From NCBI GenBank assembly GCA_951406725.2, contig OX597819.1, positions 12,958,001 to 13,022,000 on the forward strand: a stretch of DNA of 64,000 bases, given 5' to 3'. The position numbers and the translations under genes are program-made. Shown piece after piece: positions 18,692-60,169 of the stretch. The notes under the pieces are model-generated. The model ran no database searches and was not told where the DNA came from. It was given only the letters and a program-made list of their open reading frames with translations. Position 1 is the first letter of the stretch. Each line of letters begins with the position of its first letter. The DNA comes from Octopus vulgaris (lineage: Eukaryota).

Positions 18692-19625
18692 CAGGGTGCG
18701 ATGGGTAAATTGTCACCCTCTCAAAGACACCTACCCAAAGTACCACACAGTGGGTCTGAACCCGAAACCATGTAGCTATGAAGCAAGCTCCCTAACCACA
18801 CAGCCATGCCCGCGCCTACATCATTTTATATTTTTAAATTCATGCATGTGCATTATTTGTTTCTTGATTTTGTCAACTATTCAGTATAGTAGGGTCAGTT
18901 GGGCACTGTCTGTGAGGAAAAAAACAGCACCATGATGCAATTTACTCTGCCAGAAATTTGGAAATGACATGCTGTACTGCTTGGCATTTGCGCCAGAAGC
19001 TCCAATATGAACAGATGGTGAACACACACAACAACTGTTGGCTGGCCGTGTCCCCAAAACATGTACCAAGAGTGATAAAAATCAAACATCCAGTGAGCAT
19101 CATGGTGTTTGGAGTAATCACTAGTGATGGTGACGTTATGCCTCGATTCATTTTCCCACATGGCCTCAGACTCAACATGGAGGTCTACATCAAGTGCCTG
19201 GAGAAGATAGTGCTATCCTGGGTCAAGAAGGTAGCTGCTAGAAGACCCTATGTCTGGCAACAGGACTCTGCACCATGCCACACAAGCAGGAGAACCCAGT
19301 CATGGCCCTTAGACAATATCTGTGACCACATCACTCCTAAAATCTGGCCATCTAAACTCCCCAGACTGCAGCCCCCTTGATTATTATGTGTGGAGCGCAG
19401 TTGAGTGAGAGACCAACAAAACTCCTTGTAACACCAAAGATGAAGTGAAAGCAAGGATTATAGCAGCTTAAACATTCACCAACTTAAATAAGGAGACCAT
19501 CCAGAAGAGTTGCAGGAGATTCCGAAGTCATCTGGAAGCTGTGGTTGAAGCCAATGGCGATTTTATTGAATAAATTTACTCCTTAGTATTTCAAGATATT
19601 TTTATGTAATTCTGGTAAATTACAT
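18692..19625 (+). mobile_element. Tc1/mariner-superfamily (DD37D/maT-like) transposon remnant
   Basis: TA|CAGGGTG terminus at 18692. ORF 18958..19380 has KHPVSIMVFGVITSDG..YVWQQDSAPCH..WP, frameshifting to SPDC.PLDYYVW. Confidence 0.8.
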
Positions 19626-20615: not shown

Positions 20616-20682
<67 letters not shown>

Positions 20683-20787
20683 GAGTACAGAAATTCGGGG
20701 TGAGTACTTGATAATTATAAGCACCTGTGTATACCGTTTGGTGGTGGAGTAAATTGATCAAAATAAAAACATGATGCCAAGGATTCA

Positions 20788-20865
20788 GCGGTACATATGT
20801 TTCGGGCCTTTATTAGACAGATTTATAACAATGCATAATGTATGTCTGTGGCCTTCTTCAGCCGC
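20788..20865 (-). ncRNA. Minimal type-I hammerhead motif (mirror of 20888-20965)
   Basis: Exact reverse complement of the plus-strand motif. Confidence 0.7.
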
Positions 20866-20887
20866 GTCCTTGTGGAAGTTGTTGTGC

Positions 20888-20965
20888 GCGGCTGAAGAAG
20901 GCCACAGACATACATTATGCATTGTTATAAATCTGTCTAATAAAGGCCCGAAACATATGTACCGC
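20888..20965 (+). ncRNA. Minimal type-I hammerhead ribozyme motif
   Basis: GCGG-CTGAAGA-aGGCC...GGCCc-GAAA-C-ATAT-G-TA-CCGC; predicted GUA cleavage after 20961. Confidence 0.7.
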
Positions 20966-21036
20966 TGAATCCTTGGCATCATGTTTTTATTTTGATCAAT
21001 TATATATATATATATATATATATGTATACAAACATT

Positions 21037-21424
21037 CTTTTATTTTTTTTACTTGTTTCAGTCATTTGACTGCGGCCATGCTGGAGCATCGCCTTTAGTT
21101 GAACAAATCAACCCCAGGACGTATTCTTTGTATTCTATCGGACTCTTTTTATTGAAATGCTAAGTTACAGGGATGTAAACACACCAACACTGGCTGTCAA
21201 GCGATGGTGGGGGGACAAACACAGACACACAGACATATATTTACAATGAGCTACTTTCAGTTTCTGTCTACCATGTCCACTCACAAAGCTTTGGTCGGCC
21301 CAAGGCTATAGTAGAAAACTCTGGCACAAGGTGCCACACAGTGGGACTGAACCTGGAACTATATATACATACACACACATGAGTGTATGTATCTATGTAT
21401 GTATATTTTATATATATGTGTGTG

Positions 21425-21473
<49 letters not shown>

Positions 21474-22123
21474 GTGCAGGGGTGACTGTGTGGTAAGTAG
21501 CTTGCTTACCAACCACATGGTTGTGGGTTCACTCTCACTGTGTGGCACCTTTGGTAAGTGTCTTCTGCTATAGCCTTGGGCCAACCAAAGCCTTGTGAGT
21601 GGATTTGGTAGATGGAAACTGAAAGAAGCTTGTTATATATATATATATATATATGTTTGTGTGTGTGTTTGTTCTCTCATTGTTGCTTGACAACTAATGT
21701 TGGTGTGTTTACATTCCCATAAATTAGCAGTTTAGCAAATTAGCAAAAGAGAATGATAGAACAATTACTAGGCTTACAAAGAATAAGTCCTGGGGTCGAT
21801 TTGTTTGACTAAAGGCGGTGCTCCAGCATGGCCGCAGTCAAATGACTGAAACAAATAAAAGAATAAATATACATATATACACACTCACACAAAAACCTCT
21901 TAGTTCTTTGCTGTTGTCTCCTCAGCTTACTAGCCCTGGTTACACACACACACACATATATATACAACAAGCTTCTTTCAGTTTCCGTCTACCAAATCCA
22001 CTCACAAGGCTTTGGTTGGCCTTATGCTATAGTAGAAGACACTTGCCCAAAGTGCTATACAGTGGGACTGAACCCGAAACCATGTGGTTGGTAAGCAAGC
22101 TACTTACCACACAGCCACTTCTG
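21037..22123. mobile_element. Three SINE-A copies: 21037-21358 minus, 21474-21865 plus, 21963-22123 minus
   Basis: Matches consensus, more diverged. Confidence 0.85.
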
Positions 22124-29222: not shown

Positions 29223-29856
29223 TGTGGTCTGATCAATAAGTATCTGGACTGTTGCTATAGTAACAAAGCTAAACCATGCAGAGTGAAGCCACTTGGCACA
29301 GATTGACTTTGAACTCTGCTGTGCATGTGCACTAAGTTTTAATGCTCTAGTTCACTTCTGCTGTTTACAGCAGTACCTGGAAGGAAGGTGTGTAGCGAGT
29401 GATTGTTGCATTAACCATCACAGATAAAGTTGAGCAGAGAATCTGCATGAAATCTTGCCAAAAGTTTGACGATACCTGCTCAGAGGCCTATGAAAGGTTT
29501 TCAAAAAACTTTCATCCTGCTTGACACAATCAAGGAGATCTTGTGCAACTGAAACATGAGTGTCCTTTTGGTCAGCTGAAAGCAGTTTTAGCACAAAATT
29601 AGCAGGCACACATCTCATACCCAAATCTTCAGTTATGATGGACTGAACTGAACTGTAACTAATCTGCACATCCTCTAATTCACAGATGGTGATTTGACAA
29701 TTTCCCCTCACAGCTGCATGCACATCTGCGATGTTTTTCTCAGTTCTGCTGGTTTCAGCAGAGGTCAAGGTCAATCTGTACCAAACAGCTTTACTTTGCA
29801 TGCTTTAGTGTTGTTACTAATGGCAACAGTCCGGATACTTTTAATATCATCTATGG
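29223..29856. mobile_element. Non-autonomous mariner with internally inverted transposase remnants
   Basis: Imperfect ~60-bp TIRs. Plus strand DKVEQRICMK..DTCSEAY; minus strand TSRTEKNI..ITEDLGMR..FVLKLLSADQK. Confidence 0.8.
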
Positions 29857-30264
29857 TAAATATTTTTAAATGATGATATTAACAGTAGTAACAGAGGCAG
29901 TTGAACAGGTCAAATAACATAAAATAGCGATAAAATTTAAAGTTAGCACGAGGCACAAGGATGAGGAAACAGCATTGTCCTGTTTAGAAATAGGAGCTAA
30001 ATCCCTAATATACAACTGCCAGAAAGCACCAAATAACAGACGGTAAGGAATATATATATATATACAAATATAAAAATGGAACAAAAACGCAATAGAGGGC
30101 ATTAACGCAATAGAGGGCATTAAAACATTCAGACAGATAGACGACACAAAGGCGGACAAGAGAAACAACAATTAGAAGGACAGACAAAAAAGGAAAGGTC
30201 ATTCTTGGCTATCTTTCATCAGTCAAGTGCCAGAAGTCACGACCATTTCAGACAGTTACATATA

Positions 30265-30895
30265 TCAGGTCATCCCATAAGTTCTGTCCAATTTTACCTT
30301 TTTAAAAATTGAATGAAATTTAATAGTATTTTAGAATGTCTAATGGAATTAAAAATTATTTTTATGCATTTGTGTACATTTAAACTAATTAAATATTATT
30401 TTACAGAATAATAGAATTATAATTTCTTTGATTAAAACCCTTTCTAACATGGAAGTATCCAACGAGCATTTGAGGCACATAATGCTTTATGAGTACAATC
30501 AAAAAGGAGTGATGTTTCATCAGGACAATGTGCAGCCCCACACTGCAAAGATCACATCACAGAAGATCGAAGAGCTTGGTTTGAAAAAAATTCCTCATCC
30601 ACCTTATTCTCCCGAACTTGCTCCTTCAAACTACCATTTGTTTCGTAGTTTACAGAATCATTTGGGGGACATAACTTTCACAAGCCAGGAGGAGGTCAAA
30701 ACTGACATTTCAGAGTTCTTCGCTTTGAAACCAAAAGAGTTTTACATTGATGGAATTAAAAAGCTTGTAAATAGATGGAAGGAAGTCATAGATAATCAGG
30801 GAAAGTACATTGATGATTAAATTTCAATTAAATATAACATCTGATCACTTGTTTTATTCATTCAAAATTCGGACAGAACTTATGGGATGACCTGA
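30265..30895 (+). mobile_element. Internally deleted mariner (D,D34D type) element
   Basis: TA|TCAGGTCATCCCATAAGTTCTGTCC..GGACAGAACTTATGGGATGACCTGA|TA. ORF 30428..30820 fuses HLRHIMLYEY to FHQDN..HPPYSPELAPSNYHLF..RWKEVIDNQGKYIDD. Confidence 0.95.
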
Positions 30896-31442: not shown

Positions 31443-31534
31443 TATATGTGTGTGTGCGTGTGTGTGTTAAATAAAATGACACAACAAAGCCAAGGCTGTG
31501 TGGAATTTTCAGGACATTTATAATGAGAAAGTTA

Positions 31535-31582
31535 GTCTTACAGCCGTTTCTGGGACATTAGGAATATCTCTTCATCAGAGAC
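31535..31582 (-). ncRNA. Minimal type-I hammerhead motif
   Basis: GTCT-CTGATGA-aGAGATAT-tccta-ATGTCCCa-GAAA-C-GGCT-G-TA-AGAC. Confidence 0.6.
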
Positions 31583-31718
31583 AATATGAGAGAGTTAAAT
31601 AGAGGGAAATAGTAGTGTTCAATATGAGGAGTTATTTTGGAAAAGGAGGCAAATATGGAGTATATATAACTCCTCATATTGAACTCTAATATTTCCCCCT
31701 ATTTAACCATCTCTCATC

Positions 31719-31766
31719 GTCTCTGATGAAGGGATATCCCTAATATCTCAGAAACAGATGTAAGAC
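31719..31766 (+). ncRNA. Minimal type-I hammerhead motif
   Basis: GTCT-CTGATGA-aGGGATAT-cccta-ATATCTCa-GAAA-C-AGAT-G-TA-AGAC. Confidence 0.68.
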
Positions 31767-32143
31767 TAATTTTCTCTTTATAAATGTCCTGAAAACTCCT
31801 CACAGCCTTGGTTTTGTTGTCTCATCTTATTTAACATATACATGCTCAAACAAGACCCGCATTAGACTCCTCATTCATATCATCATTGAACCGAGAGTCT
31901 AACTACGGTCCTTCCATAGCACTTACATAGCCCTACCTGCCACCTTGGGTCTTCTGGATACCAATACCTCTCATATATATGAAGGGGTGATGAAAGCCAG
32001 GAACTTTTCAGCATATACCCCCTTGTGTATATGTCAGTTGTAGGGTGAAATTTGAATTTCTAACCAAAAAATATTAGACTTTTAGTCTAGGTACTTCGTT
32101 AATGATGATCAAAGATAACGATAAATAAATAAAATAACATAAA

Positions 32144-33868: not shown

Positions 33869-34631
33869 CATCATCATCATCATTGTTCGACTGTGGTCGA
33901 GACAAGGGAATTTACTATGTTACGCCAGACTTCATGGTCCATCATAGCATTACGGAGGTCTTGTTGCTGGATGCCTGTATCCCTGGAGATTACATCAGGG
34001 TAGGAGAATGTGCGCCCTCTGGTATCGCGAGTAGATGGCTTCCAGAGGAGAAGAGTAGAAATCACCTCGTTTTCAGCTCTGCAACAATGTCCAGCAAACT
34101 GGACTCTTCTACCATTCACTAGAGATGATATGGGTGGTAGTTTCCCATATATTTGTGCTTTGGTTGGATGACACTTCCATGAGAGATTTTGAGCTCTCAT
34201 AAGGAGGCGAGAGTAAGTTCCATCCAACCGCCTCTCAAGCTTCTTTGATAACGTCCAGGTTTCTGAGCCATATAGTAGAATTGGTTCGACTGTGACTTTG
34301 AAGATTTTAAGTTTGAAATCTCTACTTAGATTTGATGACCAGATCTTATGCATATCTTTACAGGCTGACCAGTCCATACCCTTTCTAGTTAGAAAATCTT
34401 TTTCAGATGATGATATGTATGACCCAAGATATTTGTAATCAGAAACCATATTTAAGGGCGTATTGTTGAGATTATGGATGATGAAATCACTGTTGGACAA
34501 GCACTTGTTTACATATTCAGTCTTGGACTCATTGAGGTAAAGACCTACACAATTTGAGGCTTGTTCAAGAGATTGTAAAAGAGACTGGGCATTGGAGAGA
34601 GAATCACTGATAAAAGCGACGTCGTCAGCGA
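33869..34631 (-). mobile_element. 5'-truncated RTE-clade LINE (RT C-terminal part)
   Basis: ADDVAFI..GLYLNESKTEY..YKYLGSYI..ILLYGSETWTL..FAGHCCR..; open frame of about 250 codons; (TGA)n tail. Confidence 0.92.
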
Positions 34632-34947
34632 TGTTGATGGCTTAACCAGAGGAAAAAGGGCAACACCTATAACCTTGTTTTGCAGAGTCTTTGGGAGGAA
34701 GGAATAAAGTTTATATTTAGCCCAAAGATCTTCCTAGAAATGTTTGCAACAAAATGGACTTAATATACCCAAGAATAAAACGGTGGGATGGAACTGGACA
34801 ATAGGTTTTTGTTAGTCAGCCAGGAATTGGTTCTGACCATTGAAAGAGCATCTACATAGTTTCTCTCATTCCAGTCTCACTCACATGGCTATTGCCAGAA
34901 GATATAAACAGCTGTCATAGATAATATAAACATTTAAATACAAATAT

Positions 34948-38643: not shown

Positions 38644-38681
38644 CTGTTACTCTGAGTTTCTCGTTGCCGTTCATCAGACAG
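38644..38681 (-). ncRNA. Compact type-I hammerhead motif
   Basis: CTGT-CTGATGA-aCG-GCAA-CGa-GAAA-CTC-A-GAG-TA-ACAG, about 35 bp from a (TA)n tract. Confidence 0.7.
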
Positions 38682-47425: not shown

Positions 47426-48261
47426 GTACAGGTAAACATAAATTATGCTGCAAACAGCATAATTTACATGTACAGATGTTAAAATAATTATTTGTATGAA
47501 CGTCGTTTCATATGTTGCCTACACAATCATCAGTGGACAAACAGAACTCTTATAACGATATATCTAATTTATAACAACACAGTGTTATGTGTTTTGGGTA
47601 AAAGAAACCAAGTACAAGAGAATAAGCTGAACAGCCCCAAATATGTGTAATATATATACATGCTTGTAACATCTCTTAGAAAATAAATATTTATGGCTTG
47701 ACATAATAAAGTACCAAAGTTTAAGAAAGGCTAAGCGGTGGGTGAAACCTTAACACATACATATATACTTCTTTATCTGGCTGATAAATTAATGTTAATG
47801 TCCTGATAGGGATCTACACCTTGAGAGAGTAAAATGTGTGTGTGTGGGGGGGGTATGTATATTTAACAAATTATGGTTAGACCTAACTAGCTCTCAGACT
47901 ATTTCCCACCCCCTCCCCAATATCTCTGATATCCATCTATCATTTTATCTGTCTACCTACCTAACTACATAAATATTTCTCCCCACCCCCCGCCAATGAT
48001 TGTGTGTGTGTGTGTGTGTGTGTATTTGTGTAAGTATGTGTGTGTGTATATATACATGTATTTATATATATATATATGTATATATATATATACACAGTAG
48101 TAGTAGTAGGTGTAGTAGTAGCAGTAGTAGTATTGTAATGACTGTCACAATTAATTGGATTAAAAGTCGGTCAGAAACTAATAATAACAACAAGAACAAC
48201 AACAACAACAACAACAATAATAATAAATAATATAATAAAAAAAAATAATAATATAATAAAA

Positions 48262-48508: not shown

Positions 48509-48540
<32 letters not shown>

Positions 48541-48542
48541 CA

Positions 48543-49290
48543 TTGACCATGTGGTCCATTGACCATGTGGTCTCCAAGTGCAGTCTTCTAGCGCCTACAG
48601 AGTATCTCAACAGGCACGATAGAGCTGCACAATATATTCACTGGGTAATCTGTAAAAACCTGGATTTGCCCCATGAAAAAAACTGGTGGGAACACAAACC
48701 ACCCCCAGTGCTTGAAAATGACCACATCTCACTCCTCTGGAACTTCACCATTCAAACTGACAGGAAGATAGATGCAAATAGGCCAGACATCATATTGAAA
48801 AACTTCAAACAAAGAACATGCCTCCTCATTGATATGACTGTCCCAATCGATATAAACGTATCTGTCAAGACCTACCAAAAACTGAGCAAATATAAAGATC
48901 TTGAAATAGAAATCAGCAAAATGTGGAAGCTGAAGACTAAAACAATACCTGTTGTCATAGGTGCCCTGGGAATGATAGCAAAAGGGGCTGATAGCTACCT
49001 AACTCAGATACCAGGAAACCCAAAAATGGCAGAAGTTCAAAAGATAGTGCTCATGGGAACTGCTCATATCCTACGCAAAATACTCTCTATGTAATCTCAA
49101 GGTTTAAAAAAACATAATTTTCGGTTTAAAAAAAAAAAAAAAAAAAAAAAAACTTTTTTTTTTTTAGACATTCATTAGTACAACATCCCCACCCCCCAAA
49201 TATATGGCACACTAGGCATAACAACAACATGAACTTCCAACCCTGTTGTCTCTTGAGGTCTCTGGGTGAGACTTGGAGCCAACTTGTACA
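48543..49290 (+). mobile_element. 5'-truncated Dong/R4-clade retrotransposon: intact RLE domain plus 3' UTR, in a (TAA)n array
   Basis: ORF 48543..49094 has HVVSKC..YLNRHD..RPDII..LIDMTVP..KLSKYKDL..IPVVIGALG..GTAHILRK. TAA arrays at 48180-48540 and 49290-49503. Confidence 0.95.
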
Positions 49291-59625: not shown

Positions 59626-60169
59626 TATTTGCATTATTCAAAATGTTAAAATTTATGCTTCAGTGTTGAAAAAAAAATAAACATTAAACATCTTTAGTGC
59701 TTTGGAAGAAACAGTTTTTGTTTAACCCCAGCTCAGCGTTATTGAGTAGACTTTCTAATCAAAGGGCAACATTATATCAAATATGTGCTTTATTTCTATT
59801 AAGATGGTAGGGTATGATTGCTGCTATTCTTAGTAGGTTGAGAAAGTATGTAGAAGTCCTTATTGATTCACCTGATGAACTAATCTAGAGAAAGCCTCTG
59901 AAATGAAACTATAATCATTTTAGTTTAACAATATGGCTGATGGAAATATCCCAGACAAGCAGTCTGTGTACTAAGTATCAATAAAGTAGGATCTAATGTA
60001 TGCAATATGGTGAGATAGAAAGCTTTGATTGAGATTGCCCATGTAGATAAAAACTTTCTTTGAGAGTGTTTAAAATCTGAAAACAAGTAAGGGGGATAAC
60101 TCCAGCAAGATCAATCAATTGAATTATAGTTTATTTCAACAGATTGGAATGAGCCGTTCCGAACTAAAT

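What the first reader, a model, noticed from the sequence alone, without database searches (positions are those of the whole stretch)
20680..21001. 250-bp palindrome placing a well-formed hammerhead on each strand, inside (TA)n
Seen: 115-bp mirror arms whose inner ends lie at the start of stem I (GCGG/CCGC), core CTGAAGA..GAAAC-ATAT-GTA, a 20-nt spacer, a ~70-bp unique tail on one side and TA tracts on both sides. It has no coding capacity. Known: PLE-associated minimal hammerheads with palindromic stem III cleave as dimers, and PLE insertions often carry an inverted partial terminal repeat. Inference: a young minimal ribozyme-bearing mobile unit. A read-through transcript would pair each ribozyme with its own antisense, a possible conformational off switch.
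Basis: partly seen in the sequence, partly recalled or inferred. Interest (0 to 1): 0.75.

Follow-up and report, generated by a model that had tools for sequence, protein, structure and literature searches.

The report
Head-to-head stub of Penelope-like retrotransposon
This mirror-image stretch is two cut-short, head-to-head copies of the end of a young, abundant jumping gene, each carrying a predicted self-cutting RNA; such insertions are a known kind, but their ends follow a strict one-long, one-short rule that likely records how the element is copied into DNA.

Summary
The palindrome and both hammerhead motifs are real, but this is not a mobile unit of its own. It is the 3' end of a young, high-copy Penelope-like element (PLE; units of 4.4-4.8 kb, 836-aa RT-endonuclease ORF with Hydra-clade motifs), inserted in (TA)n as two 5'-truncated copies head to head. 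The centre junction occurs once in the genome, and the 'unique tail' is family sequence. Inverted copies, a one-sided tail and hammerheads on opposite strands are all in print. The ribozyme is not minimal (51-nt helix II insert), covaries across 14 related families and is predicted to need a dimer. What adds value: 47 of 47 head-to-head loci of this family, and 16 of 16 in two related families, carry exactly one tail; the two arms of a locus share private alleles; one locus has non-overlapping arms. This favours priming from both nicked target strands at two start sites on one RNA over the published self-priming idea. The scan noted the same end rule earlier on other DNA of this genome (e1-8669363). 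The antisense 'off switch' is physically plausible but has no support as a function. Cleavage and read support for this junction are untested.

The parts
20620..20679 (.). (TA)n target tract, left side
   Evidence: sequence; nearly all family 3' ends examined abut (TA)n or a related simple repeat
20680..20751 (-). PLE 'tail' (long end): family sequence that in full copies lies between the 5' pLTR and the ORF start; this copy lacks 9 nt of it
   Evidence: (L073, L074, L075, L080 run on from the tail into the ORF)
20752..20866 (-). tail-bearing arm: 5'-truncated family 3' end, starting 5 nt upstream of the hammerhead core
20788..20865 (-). type I hammerhead motif, mirror copy; predicted cut between 20792 and 20791
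   Evidence: mirror of 20888-20965
20866..20867 (.). head-to-head junction, 1-nt overlap (G20866), unique in the genome
20867..21001 (+). tail-less arm (short end): 5'-truncated family 3' end, starting 26 nt upstream of the core; 20867-20886 is the 'spacer'
20888..20965 (+). type I hammerhead motif with extended helix II (20899-20949), A.C at the base of helix II, self-complementary helix III 20953-20960, predicted cut after 20961
20939..20944 (+). AATAAA in a bulge of helix II, 17 nt before the predicted cut; possible poly(A) signal, unproven
21002..21023 (.). (TA)n target tract, right side
   Evidence: sequence

Best explanation
The locus is a single insertion of a young Penelope-like retrotransposon into a (TA)n tract, made of two 5'-truncated copies of the element's hammerhead-bearing end joined head to head, and it was likely made when the element's enzyme nicked both strands of the TA tract and primed two cDNAs on one RNA. 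Shown: family identity, autonomous parents, two fixed 3' ends about 70-85 nt apart, one of each per locus, shared alleles between arms, unique junction. Inferred (about 60%): one cDNA starts at the distal site (giving the tail), the other at the proximal site; both run toward the RNA 5' end, stop early and are joined with 0-6 nt of overlap or a few filler bases. The hammerhead belongs to the parent's pLTR and is predicted to cut only as a dimer or with protein help; in this copy it is probably inert, since any read-through RNA makes the antisense arm first and folds as a 115-bp duplex.
For: 122-nt arm: 922 first-look candidates, all 42 listed matches 100% identical. 13 of 14 long-ORF loci carry the segment 1.6-2.0 kb downstream of the ORF; L074 and L080 have direct pLTRs, L071/L076/L079/L082/L083 inverted 5' copies. 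ORF model (pLDDT 85.8) hits TERT first (E 6e-9) and has the Hydra motifs. One tail per head-to-head locus: 28 of 28 incl. the window, 19 of 19 in a second set, 11 of 11 and 5 of 5 in two related families. Arm divergence within vs between loci 0.6% vs 1.5% (27 loci) and 0.4% vs 1.9% (19 loci), 0 of 5000 permutations each; alleles seen only in the two arms of one locus in L001, L005, L008, L076, L079, L082, L083. L028 arms do not overlap (reference 592-628 vs 319-548); either arm can reach further 5' (7 tail, 16 non-tail, 6 equal of 29). PAc protein cuts and extends both strands and starts RT at two internal sites that bound the tail (PMC11167929). Dimer cofold gives an 8-bp intermolecular helix III at -38.2 kcal/mol.
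Against: No read or contig shown bridging this junction (list was cut). Pfam and PDB sequence searches find no RT or GIY-YIG domain in the ORF; the endonuclease call rests on motifs and on Atlas clusters where PF01541 is on 26-50% of members. Two loci (L002, L034) differ between arms at a polymorphic site. L090 in a related family has two short ends, though its identical flanks suggest a later duplication. In L076 the tail-less end lies inside the ribozyme. Shared alleles could also come from gene conversion or from two RNAs of one source locus. Monomer fold not better than shuffles. Tail is 70-85 nt, not the 30-40 bp in print.
Confidence: 0.85

Rival explanations
1. Same PLE identity, but the inversion arises by self-priming (fold-back) of one nascent strand, with the tail trimmed from one end by the endonuclease during resolution, as proposed in print.
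For: Arms share alleles; several junctions sit in short imperfect palindromes (L024, L136, L145; L196 and L220 in other families); proposed in PMC3846280 and, for the tail, PMC8557442.
Against: L028 arms share no sequence, and L131 and L171 overlap by only 30-40 nt with hundreds of nt unique to the other arm; no fixed polarity for which arm is longer; the window junction has only 1 nt of overlap.
Confidence: 0.3
2. The 322-bp palindrome is a small non-autonomous mobile unit (retrozyme- or MITE-like) whose hairpin is a built-in ribozyme switch.
For: Perfect arms, TA flanks, very stable hairpin.
Against: Junction 23-mer occurs once in the genome; 18 other compact loci all have different junctions and lengths, 265-834 bp; no tandem array; autonomous parents carry the same end.
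Confidence: 0.03
3. Fold-back artefact of sequencing or assembly.
For: Arms are 100% identical; no bridging contig shown.
Against: Flanks differ on the two sides; both ends fall on the family's two biological ends; 46 other loci show the same asymmetric rule, many with arm mismatches; contigs from three public runs show other inversion-type joints of this family at depth 12-34 (table 5).
Confidence: 0.04

Closest known systems
Hydra-clade Penelope-like elements (Craig et al. 2021, PMC8557442; passages, section 11, supplement look-ups and part 2 of 59 seen)
   Same: C-terminal endonuclease, RW, DKT, CxCX5C linker, CxxC and CxH around conserved E and N, no CCHH, (TA)n target, type I hammerhead with a mismatch often facing at the base of helix II; Penelope-13_HM has an inverted 5' copy with a hammerhead listed on each strand.
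   Different: Unit 4.4-4.8 kb against 'generally <3 kb'; RWA instead of RWK; helix II insert of 51 nt against short loops (3-10 nt) in the published Hydra table; tail 70-85 nt. Not one of the listed families: two peptide and two DNA motifs specific to it are absent from Hydra entries of the supplement, and Hydra-1_Obim has a different protein and ribozyme.
Inverted pLTR structures of EN+ PLEs (Arkhipova et al. 2013, PMC3846280, passages; Schostak et al. 2008, PMC2377424, passages)
   Same: Head-to-head inverted copies, tail on one of the inverted pLTRs, palindromes and microhomology at junctions.
   Different: In print the tail is 'optional' or 'often at only one end'; here it is on exactly one arm in 47 of 47 loci. 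In print the explanation is self-priming.
PLE hammerheads (Cervera and de la Pena 2014, PMC4209133; parts 1-2 of 4 read)
   Same: Type I, short helix I, palindromic helix III, dimer model; dual motifs 100-700 bp apart on opposite strands are reported.
   Different: Not the minimal form; A.C instead of the conserved G10.1-C11.1; long bulged helix II.
Poseidon PAc biochemistry (Frangieh et al. 2024, PMC11167929; parts 1-2 of 4 and a term search)
   Same: Two internal RT start sites bounding the tail, AT-rich target, both strands cut and extended, predicted dimer, protein-assisted hammerhead not needed for insertion.
   Different: Other clade; the main text does not link these results to inverted insertions.
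L1 twin priming (recalled, no call)
   Same: Two primers from the two nicked strands, inversion joined by microhomology.
   Different: In L1 the two parts do not overlap and one starts at the poly(A) end; here both start at fixed internal sites and usually overlap, giving a palindrome.
Metazoan non-LTR retrozymes (PMC7229834, passages; bioRxiv 10.64898/2026.07.22.740005, part 1 of 5)
   Same: Type I hammerhead in a small non-coding repeat, PLE-related.
   Different: Retrozymes are direct tandem repeats of 150-450 bp; this is an inverted pair of truncated ends of a coding element.

Membership tests
EN+ Penelope-like element | single ORF with telomerase-related RT | tested here: met
   836-aa ORF in parents, YRDD 357, model hits TERT first; Pfam and PDB sequence searches blank
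EN+ Penelope-like element | C-terminal GIY-YIG endonuclease | tested here: met
   Y717, Y730, G732, R740, E799, N814 conserved in 99-100% of 114 aligned proteins; PF01541 on part of the members of similar Atlas clusters; no direct Pfam hit
EN+ Penelope-like element | pLTRs, direct or inverted, with hammerhead and optional tail | tested here: met
   direct in L074, L080; inverted in L071, L076, L079, L082, L083
Hydra clade | RWK and DKT motifs | tested here: met
   R39 W40 (100%), third residue A in this family; D126 K127 T128
Hydra clade | CxCX5C linker; CxxC and CxH around conserved E and N; no CCHH | tested here: met
   C696, C698, C704; C793, C796; C823, H825; no conserved cysteine between Y717 and Y730
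Hydra clade | (TA)n insertion preference | tested here: met
Hydra clade | tendency to be short (<3 kb; the paper says 'generally', I do not treat it as defining) | tested here: not met
   pLTR-to-pLTR 4.4 kb (L074) and 4.8 kb (L080); a related family here is 2.9 kb (L105)
Hydra clade | placement in an RT tree with reference Hydra sequences | not tested
   reference sequences were seen only as cut text in the supplement; membership rests on motifs
Type I hammerhead ribozyme | core CUGANGA, GAAA, UH and three helices | tested here: met
   14 family motifs, 95% of cells paired, 11 of 13 pairs change on both sides, slid controls 31-47% (motifs were picked by a descriptor that requires pairing)
Type I hammerhead ribozyme | G10.1-C11.1 closing pair (common, not universal) | tested here: not met
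   A.C here; G-C, G.U, A-U, U.U in relatives; U.U and U.C in published Hydra motifs
Type I hammerhead ribozyme | self-cleavage | not testable with these tools
   needs in vitro transcription
Minimal PLE hammerhead (min-HHR) | no helix III/loop 3, compact helix II | tested here: not met
   8-nt palindromic helix III and 51-nt helix II insert
Non-LTR retrozyme | direct tandem non-coding repeats of 150-450 bp | tested here: not met
MITE / fold-back DNA element | many copies of the same terminal-inverted-repeat unit | tested here: not met
   junction unique, lengths and junctions differ, ends asymmetric

The most novel reading that the evidence does not exclude
Head-to-head PLE insertions are twin-primed: one RT-endonuclease dimer nicks both strands of the self-symmetric (TA)n target and starts one cDNA at each of the two internal start sites on a single RNA. 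That would explain inverted pLTRs, the one-sided tail and the shared alleles in one step, and would replace the self-priming model. The same elements carry an undescribed long-helix-II hammerhead, in 9 of 14 families with AATAAA/ATTAAA 17-27 nt before the cut, possibly overlaying ribozyme and poly(A) site.
Probability: 0.55. Interest if true: 0.55.

Novelty: new member of a known kind. Interest (0 to 1): 0.33.

Why it matters
The locus itself is ordinary retrotransposon debris. Its family is useful: how PLEs make inverted structures is named as an open question in PMC8557442, and here a young family with open ORFs, two sharp 3' ends and an exceptionless one-tail rule gives a direct prediction for the in vitro system of PMC11167929. 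The long-helix-II hammerhead is missed by Rfam, so such ribozymes are probably undercounted.

Tried and rejected
Neptune clade: my first reading, dropped when the motifs matched Hydra. miRNA precursor: only sub-threshold Rfam hits. Pfam/PDB sequence searches of the ORF: blank. Tandem copies 8.15 kb apart on C1: a host segmental repeat, not the element. Expression: no RNA holder listed; no evidence either way. Read support: contigs of four public runs cover both arms and the tail, but no listed piece bridges this junction and the list was cut; inconclusive. Empty-site polymorphism: not tested. Promoter idea: 25 of 71 short arms (of 118 measured; arms of one locus are not independent) start 125-150 nt upstream of the core, with the mode on the A of TCATT and GGACG 27 nt later, like the Penelope Inr/DPE (consensus spacing recalled); not reproduced in a second family and in a third the cluster (5 of 17) sits on a short palindrome, so it stays a lead. 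Poly(A) signal: present in 9 of 14 families, absent in 5, paired in some folds; lead only. My linker regex was wrong (1 of 114) and is disregarded; the first tail regex missed 2 of 19 tails, the second agreed with the BLAST ends. Whether the locus lies in a host transcript was not determined.

Full report
Observation. The window holds a perfect 115-nt inverted repeat, 20752-20866 and 20887-21001, 20 nt apart, with (TA)n on both sides and 72 extra nt on the left. Each arm reads as a type I hammerhead: stem I 20888-91/20962-65, CUGAAGA, 51 nt of helix II, GAAA, a self-complementary 8-nt helix III, predicted cut after 20961. The monomer folds no better than shuffles (z 0.69) and Rfam has no hammerhead match at E<=1, only sub-threshold miRNA-type hits.

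It is a high-copy family end. The 122-nt + arm gave 922 first-look candidates in the own genome; 40 were scored and all 42 listed matches are 100% identical. Two subfamily variants gave 1096 and 1100 candidates. These are not copy numbers. In the 30 loci fetched first, the same sequence continues upstream through the 'spacer' and, in many, downstream through the 'tail', so neither is unique. The exact 23-nt centre junction occurs once in 2.8 Gb.

The parent. Walking upstream led to an ORF on the ribozyme strand (L038) and to many near-identical long ORFs. Of 14 long-ORF loci fetched, 13 carry the ribozyme segment downstream of the ORF; L074 and L080 have direct pLTRs 4.4 and 4.8 kb apart, five have inverted 5' copies. 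In L073, L074, L075 and L080 the tail runs on into the ORF start. Pfam and PDB sequence searches were blank, but 1377 homologues exist, with named ones from molluscs and a bryozoan; a model from 114 aligned sequences (query plus 113 of the 120 listed; pLDDT 85.8) hits TERT first. Conserved residues match the Hydra-clade description of Craig et al. 2021 (section 11): RW, DKT, CxCX5C, CxxC and CxH around E799 and N814, no CCHH, (TA)n target. The family is not among those in their supplement and is longer than their typical <3 kb. The host is probably an octopod (inferred from Argonauta homologues and from recall of its repeats).

The architecture is known. Craig et al. describe an inverted 5'-truncated copy next to the insertion and a 30-40-bp tail often at one end only; their Penelope-13_HM has a hammerhead listed on each strand. 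Cervera and de la Pena report dual hammerheads 100-700 bp apart on opposite strands and the dimer model. Arkhipova et al. 2013 describe head-to-head palindromes with the tail on one inverted pLTR and propose self-priming. The window has a second, older example at 31449-31852.

The ribozyme. Related families in the genome all have 43-69 nt between the core halves, against short loops in the published Hydra table. On 14 of 16 representatives (L097 and L035 left out for length), 95% of cells pair, 11 of 13 pairs change on both sides, and slid controls fall to 31-47%; the motifs were picked by a descriptor that requires pairing, so this is partly by construction. The A.C at the base of helix II is shared by the family and matches G-C, G.U, A-U or U.U in relatives and U.U or U.C in print, so it is not decay. 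Co-folding two copies gives the double hammerhead with an 8-bp intermolecular helix III (-38.2 kcal/mol). A read-through RNA on either strand folds as one hairpin (-223 and -218.5), with the antisense arm made first. That is an off state, but nothing suggests a switch: the junction is not conserved, and these arms begin 5 and 26 nt upstream of the core, the shortest and fifth shortest of 118 arms.

The end rule. Family copies end at two places, about 40 nt after the cut (short) and 70-85 nt further (long). Among 51 sequences of the first set, 28 including the window are head to head with both outer ends visible, and all 28 have one tail (L080 left out, one end cut off; L076's tail-less end lies inside the ribozyme). 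Among 60 loci fetched afterwards with other variants, 19 new head-to-head loci again all have one tail. If ends were independent at even odds, 47 of 47 has a chance near 1e-14 (arithmetic). Two related families gave 11 of 11 and 5 of 5 (tallied by eye; pairs at L188 and L222 left out because an end was not reached). In ORF-centred loci of relatives 8 of 9 followed the rule; L090 has two short ends with identical flanks, likely a later duplication (these overlap in part). Arms of a locus differ by 0.6% against 1.5% between loci (27 loci) and 0.4% against 1.9% (19 loci), and seven loci carry alleles seen only in their own two arms, including arms 4-5 kb apart; L002 and L034 disagree at one polymorphic site.

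Mechanism. Shown here: two fixed ends, one of each, same source, junctions with 0-6 nt overlap (16 in one) or 2-11 filler nt. Shown in print for another PLE: the protein cuts and extends both strands, starts RT at two internal sites that bound the tail, is predicted to dimerise, and does not need ribozyme cleavage. Inferred: both nicked strands of the symmetric (TA)n prime on one RNA, one at each site, and the cDNAs are joined in the middle, as in L1 twin priming (recalled). Against pure fold-back: L028's arms share no sequence, L131 and L171 overlap by 30-40 nt, and either arm may reach further (7, 16, 6 equal of 29). For fold-back: several junctions lie in short palindromes. I put twin priming near 60% and self-priming near 30%. 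I did not find the twin-priming reading in print in searches or the term search 96; Arkhipova 2006 and other subscription papers are outside the library, and the bioRxiv preprint's supplement was not seen.

Artefact check. Flanks differ, ends fall on the family's two ends, and 46 other loci behave alike. Contigs from four public runs cover the whole element and three show other inversion-type joints, but no listed piece bridges this junction, so direct support is missing.

Verdict. A real but ordinary insertion product of a new Hydra-type PLE family: new member of a known kind, interest 0.33. The credit goes to the end rule and the long-helix ribozyme, both properties of the family and not of this locus.

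Noticed in passing
window 31449-31852: A second, older head-to-head pair: 187-nt arms, 86% complementary, 30 nt apart, with hammerhead cores on opposite strands at 31546-31578 (-) and 31723-31755 (+), short helix II.
   Followed up: partly
window 10423, 38656-38677, 39205, 47505-47533, 59872-59909: Further hammerhead-like core matches; 6 pattern matches in the window against 0.89 expected.
   Followed up: no
window 20939-20944 and L086, L089, L091, L092, L093, L096, L101, L110: AATAAA or ATTAAA inside helix II, 17-27 nt before the predicted cut, with a U/GU-rich tract downstream, in 9 of 14 family ribozymes; absent in 5.
   Followed up: partly
family loci, 125-150 nt upstream of the ribozyme core (e.g. 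L021, L142, L006, L047): Hot spot of 5' ends (25 of 71 short arms) on an initiator-like motif with a DPE-like motif downstream; could be a transcription start or a palindrome-favoured junction.
   Followed up: partly
L114-L119, L123 (727-aa ORF family), L111-L113: A very young related family with many identical-scoring copies in which my descriptor found no hammerhead on the ORF strand within the 8 kb fetched.
   Followed up: no
L035:5974-7331: A tandem repeat with its own long hammerhead lies right beside a head-to-head insertion of this family; possibly a retrozyme.
   Followed up: no
window 21044-21360, 21477-21863, 21944-22123: Short dispersed repeats with about 30 BLAST hits in the window, SINE-like by appearance.
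   Followed up: no
window 18916-19380, 29418-30820, 33880-34641, 48540-49094: Open frames that look like fragments of mariner-type transposases and non-LTR retroelement proteins (labels recalled, not tested).
   Followed up: no
parent ORF residues 490-544 and 638-691 (L075): Two low-confidence N/R/T-rich inserts make the protein about 130 aa longer than most homologues, recalling N-rich inserts in rotifer Penelope ORFs.
   Followed up: no
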